Assembly: GCF_988243305.1 (NCBI RefSeq)
Contig: NZ_OZ547136.1
Length of the DNA: 64,000 nt
Strand: one strand, 5' to 3'
Shown here: positions 3,001-6,000 of the stretch, piece by piece
Position numbering within the stretch: position 1 is the stretch's first letter
Layout of the letters: every line of letters begins with the position of its first letter
Program-made: the position numbers

Positions 3001-6000
3001 CGGTCGTTGCTTGATGGCAATGCCACCGCCGCAGCCCGTACCAAGCGTAATACCAAATACTACGTCATAATCTTGCCCGGTACCGTCGCAAGCTTCTGAT
3101 AGCGCGAAACAGTTACCATCATTGGCTATCACCACCGGTTGCCCAAGCAATTGCTGCAAATCAGCCTGTAACGCATGACCGTTAATCACCTGAATATTCG
3201 CGTTTTTAATCAGGCCAGTGAGTGGCGAGATACTGCCGGGTAAGGCGATCCCTGTCAGCATCGGTCGTTGAACGTCCCGCCTAATCTGCTCGATAAGCGC
3301 CACAACGCATGAGACAAATTGTTGATATGTCGACTTTTGCGTCGGGCAGCGGTAACGGCGAATCTCCCAGCCATGCGCATCCATGACGACGGCGGCGATT
3401 TTGGTCCCACCAATATCCAACCCCAGATAGTGCATATCTCGTTCCTTGTTGCGTAAAAGGCGGGTCACCCCGCCCTTCTGGCTTAGTACAGTGATGCTTT
3501 ACCGAGCGAACCGAACAGTTTCATTTTGTGGCGAATGACTTCCCGCGCCGCGTTAATCGCATCCGGATAGATGACGTTCGGGTCCCACCAGCTCTCTTTA
3601 GCGAGAATTTCACGCACTTTCTGGAAATAGGCGTATTTCATATCGCTGGAGATATTGATTTTGCCGACGCCGAGCGTAACTGATTCAGCAATCTCCGCGT
3701 CCGGGTTTGCCGAACCACCGTGTAGCACCAGCGGAATATCAATACGTCCGGCAATGTCGCGCAAAATATCCATTTGCAGCTTCGGCTGCATCCCTTTTGG
3801 ATAGATGCCATGCGCTGTACCAATCGCCACAGCCAGTGTGTCGGCACCTGTACGAGCAATAAAATCGGCGGCCTGCGCCGGATCTGTGTAGGTCACTTGT
3901 GAAACACCACCTTCTACCGACGTTCCTGTTTGTCCGATGGTTCCCAGTTCACCCTCAACCGACACTCCAACCGCGTGAGCGAGGCGAACCACTTCTGCGG
4001 TCAGCGCCACGTTTTCTTCATACGGCAGCAGCGAACCGTCGATCATTACTGAGGTAAATCCGCAGCGAATCGCACGCAAAACATGCTCTACAGAGGCACC
4101 ATGATCGAGGTGCAGTACAAACGGGACCGGACTACGCTGGGTAATTTCGCGAACGTGAGCGAAAAAGGCATCGCCCACAAAATCATGTTCGCTGGGATGG
4201 ATGGCAATAATCGTCGGAGTATTTGTCGCTTCTGCTTCATCCACGACTGCGCGAAGGAAACAGTTATCCGCCACATTAAATGCGCCAATGGCAAAGCCGT
4301 GCTGGCGGGTAGGTTGCAGTAATTCTTTCATCGAAACTAACATGTTAAATCTCCAGTTTCAGCGTGTAGTCCGCCCTGCCGGTGCGTTATTGCACTGGCA
4401 TAAAGGCCATGACAGAAAATGAATCAGGCTTTGCCTATAGAGCCGCTCGCCTGTAAATACGGTGTAATCGCTTCTTCGAAGGCCAGTTCCATAGCTTTCA
4501 GCGCGTCCACCAGTTCAATGGATATATCGTGACAGAGGGTATGCAGGAGCGCGGATTTCCCCCGTTCAAAAATGGCCGCCCCCACGTTGATTTTTGCTAC
4601 CCCCAGCGTCGTACAGAGCTGGAGCTGATCGAACGGCGTACCGCTACCGCCATGTAATGCCAGAGGCACGCTCGAGCAGTGGAAAATCTCCGCCAGACGC
4701 TGAAAATCAATAGCAGGTACAACACCAGGCGCGTACATGCCGTGCGCCGTGCCTACCGAGACGGCCAGTAGATCAATGCCTGTCTGCGCGATAAACGGTT
4801 CCACATCAGTGGGTTGCGTCATCAGGTCTGCATTGGCGGCCTGGTCGTAACGCGGCGCATCTGCCAGATGGCCCAGTTCGCCTTCCACGCAGAGCTGCGC
4901 GCTGGCGGCGAGTTCCACCACCGCCCTGGTCTGGCGCACGTTTTCCTCCAGGGGAAAAGCAGAAGCATCAATCATTAATCCGCTGAAACCAGCACGAAAC
5001 GCCTGACGAATACAGTCCGGATTTTTGCCATGATCAAGCGCCAGAGCGACCGGTACTGAGGCAGATTCCGCGAGCGTTTTAACCACTGCCGCCGCGACGG
5101 GTGCAGGAAAATGCGCCAGATGCCCCTGATAGAGATTGAGAATGATCGGAGCGCGATTCTTCTCCGCCACGCGGATAGCTGCGTGAGCACTTTCCAGATT
5201 CATACAGTTGATCGCCAGCAAGGCGTAATGTTCATGCCAGGCTTTCATCACCATACTTTTCATATCGGCAAACATAGGGCCTCCGGTTATTCGAGGGTGA
5301 AAGTGATCTCTTCATCTTTCAGCTTTTGATCGCTCAGTTCGTCAAACTCTTCGTCGCGTTCCGTTACCGGTTTCTTCCAGAGTGAAAGCATCACGCCACA
5401 AATCACCGTGCCTATACCCAGCGCCAGGCAAAACAGCAGAGGATGGGTGAACAGAGGCACAACAAACATGCCGCCATGTGGAACCGGACTCTCCACGCCC
5501 CACACCATGATTAAGCCGCCCGCGACCGCCGATGCCACCACACAAGATCCCACTACTCGCAACAGGTCACGCGCGGCGATCGGAATGACTCCTTCAGTGA
5601 TCATGCAGATCCCCATCGGAAACGCGGCTTTCAGCGCCTCGCGCTCCGCACGGGTGTATTTATGGCGTGTCAGTAAGAACGAAAGTGTGATGCCAAACGG
5701 AGGGATGATTGAGCCGACAAATTTCACGGCTTCTGGTCCGTAGACGCCACTGACCAGCAAGCCATCGGAAAACAGCGACATGGTTTTGTTGACCGGACCA
5801 CCGAAATCGAAGGTTGCCATCGCGCCAAGTATGGCCCCCATCAGGAAGCGCGATCCGCCCTGCATCGACTCGAGCAAATGAATCAGTGCTTCTTGTAACC
5901 AGGCGATGGGTTTACCAATCAGCGTCATCATTAACAGACCACCAATAATGGTGCTCAATACCGGTAACACCATGATTGGCATGAGTCCTTGCATCGACTG

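What the first reader, a model, noticed from the sequence alone, without database searches (positions are those of the whole stretch)
3436..3482. Stable stem-loop between aldolase and kinase cistrons inside the PTS operon
A perfect 8-bp GC-rich hairpin (aaggcggg tcac cccgcctt) sits in the 47-bp gap between the aldolase stop and the kinase RBS. It could act as a partial terminator or an mRNA-stabilising or processing element that lowers expression of the distal kinase and isomerase genes.
Basis: seen in the sequence. Interest (0 to 1): 0.2.

Follow-up and report, generated by a model that had tools for sequence, protein, structure and literature searches.

The report
Conserved mRNA hairpin inside frz operon
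A short, very stable RNA hairpin sits between the second aldolase gene and the sugar-kinase gene of the E. coli frz sugar-uptake operon and is kept by compensating mutations in related bacteria, so it is a real but ordinary boundary element of the kind that lets upstream genes of an operon outlast or out-express downstream ones.

Summary
The genes lie on the minus strand. On the mRNA strand the 47-nt spacer (3436-3482) folds as GAAGGGCGGG-GUGA-CCCGCCUUUU (3455-3478). That is 10 pairs: six G-C/C-G core pairs, two A-U and two G·U. The energy is -20.7 kcal/mol, z = -4.1, and 0 of 200 shuffles fold as well.

The locus is the ExPEC-associated frz operon between yicH and yicI, present in about 30% of complete E. 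coli genomes.

Orthologous operons in Citrobacter, Phytobacter, Raoultella and Klebsiella keep a hairpin at the same place. The lower stem covaries, and most loops switch among GNRA, UNCG and CUUG tetraloops. The downstream U-run is not conserved. In Pectobacteriaceae the operon ends exactly here.

My best reading is a 3'-exonuclease barrier, or decay boundary, that favours the regulator-PTS-aldolase segment over the kinase-isomerase segment. In E. coli the UUUU tail may add weak intrinsic termination. No expression data could be obtained, so the mechanism is inferred.

This is a new member of a known kind and of low interest.

The parts
3455..3478 (-). Full mRNA hairpin: 5' arm GAAGGGCGGG (3478-3469), loop GUGA (3468-3465), 3' arm CCCGCCUUUU (3464-3455)
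   Evidence: -20.7 kcal/mol, z = -4.09; retained in the centroid of a 121-nt context; pairs supported by covariation in orthologs.
3459..3474 (-). Nearly invariant core: GGCGGG-N4-CCCGCC (6 G-C/C-G pairs plus a tetraloop)
   Evidence: invariant columns; a single occurrence in the window; one copy per frz-positive E. coli genome.
3455..3458 (-). UUUU run at the 3' base of the stem. It pairs with GAAG in the extended stem. It is the only terminator-like tail and is followed by ACGC.
   Evidence: not called as a terminator; rough d-score +15 in E. coli, but 0 or negative in most orthologs.
3442..3447 (-). Shine-Dalgarno AAGGAA of the ROK kinase, 6 nt upstream of the ATG at 3435-3433 and 7 nt downstream of the hairpin
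   Evidence: sequence. AAGGA or GGAGG conserved at the same place in orthologs.
3483..4343 (-). Second class II ketose-bisphosphate aldolase (286 aa). The hairpin starts 4 nt after its TAA stop.
   Evidence: NF006042, 524 bits. PGAP calls it 'ketose-bisphosphate aldolase'.
2503..3435 (-). ROK-family sugar kinase (310 aa), the first distal cistron
   Evidence: best match fructokinase NF007108 at 316 bits, below its cut-off. PGAP calls it 'ROK family protein'.
1842..2522 (-). D-lyxose/D-mannose-family isomerase (cupin). It overlaps the kinase by 20 nt and is the last gene of the operon.
   Evidence: NF051472, 271 bits, below the 350-bit cut-off; annotation.
4424..8785 (-). Proximal part of the frz operon: PRD/Mga-type regulator (7232-8785), PTS IIA (6735-7205), IIB (6403-6717), IIC (5287-6378), first aldolase (4424-5275)

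Best explanation
The hairpin is a cis-acting RNA structure in the polycistronic frz mRNA. It marks the boundary between the core module (regulator, PTS IIA/IIB/IIC, two aldolases) and the accessory module (ROK kinase, lyxose/mannose-type isomerase).

Most likely it works as a protective 3' stem-loop. Endonucleolytic cleavage, presumably by RNase E, occurs in the A/U-rich single-stranded stretch or in the poorly protected distal cistrons. 3'-to-5' exonucleases (PNPase, RNase II) then digest back and stall at the GC-rich tetraloop hairpin. The upstream segment therefore outlives the kinase-isomerase segment, and distal expression is lower.

In E. coli, where the stem is followed by UUUU, a minority of polymerases may also terminate there.

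Shown here: the structure exists, it is sense-strand specific, it is conserved with covariation, and it has a fixed position.

Inferred: the decay-barrier mechanism and the direction of the expression effect.
For: - Stable sense-strand fold: -20.7 kcal/mol, z = -4.09. The antisense strand gives z = -1.25.
- In 12 distinct orthologous spacers (Escherichia, Citrobacter, Phytobacter, Raoultella, Klebsiella, metagenomes) 85% of cells pair, against 45-58% when the partners are slid.
- 5 of 10 pairs show a change on both sides. Examples: pair 5-24 is GC:4, AU:3, CG:1; pair 6-23 is AU:6, GU:3, GC:2; pair 11-18 is GC:10, AU:1.
- The covariation score is 0.258, and 0 of 500 shuffles reach it. RNAalifold predicts the same helix.
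- Most loops differ but stay in extra-stable tetraloop classes: GUGA, GCAA, GGAA, GAGA, UUCG, UACG, CUUG. L002 (UUUG) and L096 (CUCG) are exceptions. This points to selection for hairpin stability rather than sequence.
- The three E. coli variants inspected change only the loop or the flanks, never the stem.
- The U-tail is not conserved, so what is conserved is a hairpin, not a terminator.
- The position is fixed, 4-12 nt after the aldolase stop and 7-12 nt before the SD.
- In Pectobacterium, Brenneria and Acerihabitans the orthologous operon ends at this aldolase with a hairpin at the same spot, mostly without a U-tract. That fits a 3'-end-protecting role.
Against: - There are no transcript-level data. 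RNA-seq, 3'-end mapping and half-lives could not be examined, and the original frz paper (PMC2698472) is not in the held library.
- One lineage (metagenomic L095) has lost the 3' arm (-9.7 kcal/mol), so the element is dispensable.
- In E. coli my rough d'Aubenton-Carafa-type score is +15. That is similar to plausible bidirectional terminators elsewhere in the window, so termination could be the main effect in this species.
- The core 6 bp never varies and so gives no covariation information. Only 12 sequences were used, and I set their register by hand around the loop.
Confidence: 0.45

Rival explanations
1. The hairpin is a leaky intrinsic (Rho-independent) terminator. It followed by UUUU releases a fraction of RNA polymerases after the second aldolase gene, and this directly lowers transcription of kinase and isomerase.
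For: - A GC-rich stem with a stable GNRA loop is directly followed by UUUU.
- Using the 6-bp core as the stem, a d'Aubenton-Carafa-type score (formula recalled from memory, energies from ViennaRNA) is +15 in E. coli, +22 in E. coli ET201 and +24 in Phytobacter V91.
- That is the same range as the likely bidirectional terminators at 52.9 kb and 53.7 kb of the window.
- In Pectobacteriaceae the operon ends at this position.
Against: - Only 4 U are present, then ACGC. All four pair with the upstream GAAG in the MFE structure.
- The consensus scan, which needs at least 5 T in 8, does not report it.
- The U-tract is absent in Klebsiella aerogenes (UUCCAAUC), Raoultella planticola (UGCUGACU) and L090 (AGGCAACA), although the hairpin is kept there. 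Their scores are -9 to -41.
- The hairpin starts 4 nt after the stop codon, so a terminating ribosome would cover its 5' arm (inference from the known ribosome footprint).
Confidence: 0.25
2. The hairpin is an evolutionary relic. It would be the former 3'-end hairpin of an ancestral operon that stopped at the second aldolase. It was left in place when the kinase-isomerase module was joined downstream, and it has little present-day effect.
For: - Orthologous operons in Pectobacterium, Brenneria and Acerihabitans end at this aldolase, followed by a hairpin. The Acerihabitans one is GGGCGGGC-N7-GCCCGCCC, close to the E. coli core.
- Mangrovibacter has a 236-nt gap with a terminator-like hairpin before the kinase.
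- C. werkmanii lacks the kinase but keeps the hairpin.
- L095 has lost the hairpin.
Against: - Within the clade that carries the kinase, the stem is kept by compensatory changes.
- Most loops stay within stable tetraloop classes, although the surrounding spacer has diverged.
- That indicates continuing purifying selection, not neutral drift.
Confidence: 0.12
3. The hairpin has a translational role. It would insulate or gate the kinase ribosome-binding site, for example by locking away the pyrimidine-rich 3' arm that could otherwise pair with the SD, or by uncoupling kinase initiation from aldolase termination.
For: - The hairpin ends 7-12 nt upstream of the SD in all orthologs.
- The 3' arm (CCGCCUU/CCUUCC) is partly complementary to AAGG/GGAGG (seen directly in the sequence).
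Against: I blocked the 5' arm, mimicking a terminating ribosome, and recomputed SD accessibility in 10 orthologs. The shift was not consistent: 0.63 to 0.74, 0.65 to 0.44, 0.13 to 0.33, 0.32 to 0.32, and so on.
Confidence: 0.08
4. The inverted repeat is a chance occurrence with no selected function.
For: It is short, and the core is low-complexity G/C sequence.
Against: - 0 of 200 shuffles fold as well.
- The pattern occurs once in 64 kb, against 0.14 expected.
- It is conserved with covariation across genera.
Confidence: 0.02

Closest known systems
[quoted passage not shown]
   Same: - A stable structure immediately 3' of an upstream cistron inside a polycistronic mRNA.
- It is conserved across enterobacterial genera.
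- No obligatory U-tract.
- The expected outcome is that the proximal segment is more stable than the distal one.
   Different: - The malE-malF element is a REP/BIME repeat, present in many copies per genome. This hairpin is single-copy and unrelated in sequence.
- Differential decay has not been measured for frz.
Rho-independent (intrinsic) terminators, including leaky intra-operon attenuating terminators
   Same: - A GC-rich stem with a GNRA/UNCG-type tetraloop, followed in E. coli by a short U run.
- An upstream A-rich stretch complementary to the U run, as in bidirectional terminators.
   Different: - The U-tract is only 4 nt in E. coli.
- It is absent in several orthologs that keep the hairpin.
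Hairpins that define stable 3' ends of Rho-terminated or processed transcripts
   Same: In Pectobacteriaceae a hairpin without a U-tract lies right after the last gene (this aldolase) of the orthologous operon.
   Different: In E. coli the hairpin is internal to the operon. The next cistron starts 19 nt after the stem.
RAT/terminator pairs controlled by BglG/LicT-type PRD antiterminators
   Same: - The setting is a PTS operon, and PGAP labels the operon's regulator 'BglG family transcription antiterminator'.
- It is an intercistronic hairpin in a sugar operon.
   Different: - The regulator has HTH_11 and Mga DNA-binding domains, two PRDs and a IIB-like domain, and no CAT RNA-binding domain.
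- I saw no RAT-like sequence overlapping the 5' arm on reading it, but I ran no consensus search.

Membership tests
Intrinsic (Rho-independent) terminator | GC-rich stem-loop on the transcribed strand | tested here: met
   10-bp stem with 6 G-C pairs, -20.7 kcal/mol on the minus (mRNA) strand.
Intrinsic (Rho-independent) terminator | U-rich tract (about 7-8 nt, at least 5 U) immediately 3' of the stem | tested here: not met
   - not reported by the scan (at least 5 T in 8).
- The sequence is UUUUACGC.
- There is no U-tract in L090, L092 or L093.
- A rough d-score is weakly positive in E. coli only.
Intrinsic (Rho-independent) terminator | Transcript 3' ends or RNAP release at the site | not testable with these tools
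   No transcriptome or in vitro transcription data are available here.
Protective 3' structure / differential-decay boundary (malEFG type; PMC5927463) | Stable RNA structure at the 3' edge of the upstream, stabilised cistron within a polycistron | tested here: met
   The hairpin starts 4 nt after the aldolase stop, and the operon organisation is confirmed.
Protective 3' structure / differential-decay boundary (malEFG type; PMC5927463) | Structure conserved in orthologous operons of related genera | tested here: met
   85% of cells paired, 5 pairs with changes on both sides, 0 of 500 shuffles reach the covariation score.
Protective 3' structure / differential-decay boundary (malEFG type; PMC5927463) | Longer half-life or higher abundance of the upstream segment; exonuclease-trimmed 3' ends at the hairpin; an initiating endonucleolytic cut downstream | not testable with these tools
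   This needs rifampicin-chase RNA-seq, 3'-end mapping and rne-ts, pnp or rnb mutants.
REP/BIME or other dispersed intergenic repeat | Many copies per genome sharing a consensus | tested here: not met
   - exactly one place per genome in 1605 genomes, at an E-value limit of 10.
- one match in the window.
RAT-terminator target of a BglG/LicT antiterminator | Cognate regulator carries an N-terminal CAT RNA-binding domain | tested here: not met
   HTH_11, Mga HTH, 2 PRD domains and a PTS_IIB-like domain; no CAT domain hit.
Any curated Rfam family | Covariance-model match | tested here: not met
   no hit at the site, even at E up to 10.

The most novel reading that the evidence does not exclude
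The hairpin is a retained junction signal of operon modularity. It would be the 3'-end element of an ancestral frz operon (regulator, PTS, aldolases) that still ends here in Pectobacteriaceae. In Enterobacteriaceae it would have been re-tuned, by eroding or adjusting the U-run, into a species-specific valve. That valve would set how much of the appended kinase-isomerase module is expressed: weak termination in E. coli and Phytobacter V91, a pure decay barrier in Klebsiella and Raoultella. A ribosome terminating 4 nt upstream could make read-through depend on aldolase translation.
Probability: 0.15. Interest if true: 0.35.

Novelty: new member of a known kind. Interest (0 to 1): 0.2.

Why it matters
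The frz operon is an accessory sugar-PTS locus linked to fitness, adhesion and invasion in extraintestinal pathogenic E. coli (summarised in PMC12928451). If the hairpin sets the ratio of transporter and aldolase genes to kinase and isomerase genes, it is part of how this operon is tuned. It also shows how a boundary hairpin persists when gene modules are added to or lost from an operon. It reveals no new mechanism. Its value is as a clean, covariation-supported example, and as a caution for anyone interpreting transcript coverage or engineering this operon.

Tried and rejected
- **Rfam.** I scanned 1500-9500 at E up to 10 and found nothing at the site.
- **Dispersed repeat (REP/BIME-like).** The 50-nt spacer hits one place per genome and the core pattern occurs once in the window. 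Rejected.
- **Target of the operon's 'BglG family antiterminator'.** The regulator is a DNA-binding Mga/HTH-PRD activator type without a CAT domain. Rejected.
- **Kinase starting at the GTG inside the loop** (ORF 2503-3468). Rejected for three reasons:
  - PGAP and the ROK N-terminus support the ATG at 3435.
  - Spacer lengths vary by non-multiples of 3: 46-53 nt.
  - The same frame hits a TGA in Citrobacter FP75 (sequence).
- **SD-accessibility switch driven by a terminating ribosome.** There was no consistent effect across 10 orthologs.
- **Internal promoter for the kinase.** No sigma-70-like match near 3436-3560 on the minus strand.
- **Antisense-strand function.** The plus-strand fold is weak, z = -1.25.
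- **Original frz paper** (PMC2698472, Rouquet et al. 2009). It is not held, so I could not check whether co-transcription or this hairpin was examined. My recollection that the paper describes the operon content (MgA-family activator, fructose-type PTS, two class II aldolases, ROK kinase, cupin protein) is from memory only.
- **Literature search for frz transcript data.** It returned only the BEN2908 genome paper.

Full report
**What is in the sequence**

These are a 286-aa class II ketose-bisphosphate aldolase (3483-4343, TAA at 3483-3485) and a 310-aa ROK-family kinase (2503-3435).

The real plus strand is aaaaggcggg-tcac-cccgcccttct. One c was dropped, so only GGCGGG/CCCGCC pair perfectly on that strand. 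As RNA the plus strand is unremarkable: -13.1 kcal/mol, z = -1.25.

The mRNA strand is different because G·U pairs are allowed. GAAGGGCGGG-GUGA-CCCGCCUUUU (3478 down to 3455) forms 10 consecutive pairs closed by a GNRA-type loop.
- Energy is -20.7 kcal/mol and the structure takes 92% of the ensemble.
- z = -4.09, and 0 of 200 shuffles fold as well.
- It persists in a 121-nt context.
- In a 32-nt sliding fold of the whole window on both strands, only about 16 places reach -18 kcal/mol or lower, mostly at gene ends. This is one of them.

**What the locus is**

The minus-strand gene order is:
- PRD/Mga-type regulator (7232-8785)
- PTS fructose-type IIA (6735-7205), IIB (6403-6717) and IIC (5287-6378)
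- aldolase 1 (4424-5275) and aldolase 2 (3483-4343)
- ROK kinase (2503-3435)
- D-lyxose/D-mannose-type isomerase (1842-2522)

The cluster is inserted between yicH and yicI. This is the frz operon of extraintestinal pathogenic E. coli. The BEN2908 genome paper places frz in a 7.2-kb region and summarises its link to fitness, adhesion and invasion (PMC12928451). That paper also mentions yicI and yicH, but I did not read those passages. The original description, Rouquet et al. 2009, is not in the held library.

The 7.2-kb region is present in 1606 of 5426 complete E. coli genomes. The 50-nt spacer is single-copy in each of 1605 of them and identical in 1439. Three variants were inspected:
- ET201: loop GUGA to GCAA, plus two changes outside the stem.
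- Strain U1: loop GUGA to AUGA.
- ATCC 25922 and JA0072: identical to the window.

None of these changes touches the stem.

**Comparative evidence**

I retrieved orthologous loci through the aldolase and through kinase homologs. Operons with the same order (IIC, aldolase, aldolase, ROK, isomerase) occur in Citrobacter, Phytobacter, Raoultella, Klebsiella aerogenes and several metagenomic contigs. Their aldolase-kinase spacers are 46-53 nt. Every one but L095 has a strong hairpin of -16 to -28 kcal/mol, starting 4-12 nt after the stop codon and ending 7-12 nt before the SD.

I set the register on the loop and aligned 12 distinct sequences.
- 85% of cells form standard pairs, against 45-58% when the 3' partners are slid by 1-3 columns.
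- 5 of 10 pairs show changes on both sides: pair 5-24 is GC:4, AU:3, CG:1; pair 6-23 is AU:6, GU:3, GC:2; pair 11-18 is GC:10, AU:1.
- No shuffle of 500 reaches the covariation score.
- RNAalifold recovers the same helix.

The loops vary freely, but most stay in extra-stable tetraloop classes: GNRA (GUGA, GCAA, GGAA, GAGA), UNCG (UUCG, UACG) and CUUG. L002 (UUUG) and L096 (CUCG) are exceptions. This is the signature of selection for a stable RNA hairpin, not for a DNA or protein-coding sequence.

One lineage, L095, has lost the 3' arm, so the element is not indispensable.

**Terminator or not**

The tail differs among orthologs:

| Ortholog | Sequence after the core stem |
|---|---|
| E. coli | UUUUACGC |
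| Citrobacter, Phytobacter | UCUUUCGC |
| Phytobacter V91 | UUUUUCGC |
| K. aerogenes | UUCCAAUC |
| R. planticola | UGCUGACU |
| L090 | AGGCAACA |

The consensus scan does not call the site.

I computed a rough d'Aubenton-Carafa-type score. The formula is recalled from memory and the energies are modern, so it is uncalibrated.
- E. coli scores +15 to +22. That is comparable to plausible bidirectional terminators at 52.9 and 53.7 kb of the window.
- Citrobacter and Phytobacter score about 0 to +4.
- Klebsiella, Raoultella and L090 score -9 to -41.

So the conserved feature is the hairpin. A weak terminator activity may exist in E. coli but cannot be the shared function.

**Evolutionary context**

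- In Pectobacterium, Brenneria and Acerihabitans the orthologous operon (IIA-IIB-IIC-aldolase-aldolase, 78-80% identity in aldolase 2) ends at this aldolase. A hairpin follows the stop codon, mostly without a U-tract. The Acerihabitans one, GGGCGGGC-N7-GCCCGCCC, resembles the E. coli core.
- Mangrovibacter separates the kinase by 236 nt containing a terminator-like hairpin.
- C. werkmanii lacks the kinase, and the hairpin and SD are followed directly by the isomerase.

The hairpin therefore sits at a module junction of the operon.

**Mechanism**

The best-supported reading is a protective 3' stem-loop, or decay boundary. It is the class exemplified by malE-malF and shown genome-wide in E. coli, Salmonella and Enterobacter (PMC5927463). 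The inferred sequence of events is:
1. An endonucleolytic cut occurs downstream.
2. 3'-to-5' exonucleases stall at the hairpin.
3. The regulator-PTS-aldolase segment is stabilised relative to kinase-isomerase.

In E. coli there may also be a leaky-terminator contribution.

Lower distal expression is biologically sensible. A PTS delivers its sugar already phosphorylated, so a kinase and isomerase for free sugar are accessory, and whole lineages lack them. This point is inference. All steps after "a selected RNA hairpin exists here" are inferred, because no transcript data were available.

**Alternatives examined**

- The hairpin does not match any Rfam family.
- It is not a dispersed repeat.
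- It is not a plausible RAT target, since the regulator lacks a CAT domain.
- It is not part of an extended kinase ORF.
- It is not a consistent SD-accessibility switch.

**Verdict**

This is a real, conserved intercistronic hairpin of a well-known functional kind in a known accessory operon. It is a new member of a known kind, of low interest (0.2).

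Noticed in passing
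window 4344-4423 (minus strand), spacer between aldolase 1 and aldolase 2: This 80-nt intercistronic spacer is unusually sequence-conserved across Escherichia, Citrobacter, Phytobacter, Raoultella, Klebsiella and Mangrovibacter. Blocks ATGCC...GGCAGGG and TGGAGA are invariant. A nested hairpin is predicted but has no compensatory pairs, and the E. coli fold is not significant (z = -0.57). Its function is unexplained; it could be a processing site, a protein-binding site or an internal promoter.
   Followed up: partly
L003 3858-3915 (Citrobacter werkmanii NBRC 105721): The ROK kinase gene is absent. The hairpin and SD after aldolase 2 are followed directly by the isomerase start codon. This looks like a clean deletion of one cistron, with the boundary hairpin retained.
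   Followed up: partly
L006, L007, L008 (Pectobacterium betavasculorum, Brenneria roseae, Acerihabitans arboris), about 3860-3930: The frz-like operons end at aldolase 2, with no kinase or isomerase within 3 kb. A hairpin follows the stop codon, with no clear U-tract in L007 and L008. In Mangrovibacter (L005) the kinase lies 236 nt downstream, behind a terminator-like hairpin.
   Followed up: partly
window 1805-1836, both strands: A strong 11-bp inverted repeat (-18 to -20 kcal/mol) lies between the convergent yicH and isomerase stop codons. It has no real U-tract on either strand. It is probably the shared 3'-end hairpin of both transcription units.
   Followed up: partly
window 2503-2522: The kinase and isomerase reading frames overlap by 20 nt (isomerase ATG at 2522, kinase stop at 2503-2505). 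This suggests translational coupling of the two distal genes, in contrast with the 47-nt structured gap upstream.
   Followed up: no
window 1800-9000: The frz region is present in 1606 of 5426 complete E. coli genomes, always single-copy apart from one genome with two places, and once on a plasmid. The window is 100% identical over 7.2 kb to strains JNEC-KY178 and GMF054.
   Followed up: no
window 7232-8785 (minus strand): PGAP names the regulator 'BglG family transcription antiterminator'. Its domains are HTH_11, Mga HTH, two PRDs and a PTS IIB-like domain, with no CAT RNA-binding domain. It looks like a DNA-binding MtlR/LicR/Mga-type activator, so the automatic name is probably misleading.
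   Followed up: yes
window 24649-24680, 52901-52933, 53726-53759: These are other very stable symmetric hairpins (-20 to -24 kcal/mol on both strands), with U/A-rich flanks typical of bidirectional terminators. I used them only as a yardstick for the terminator score.
   Followed up: no
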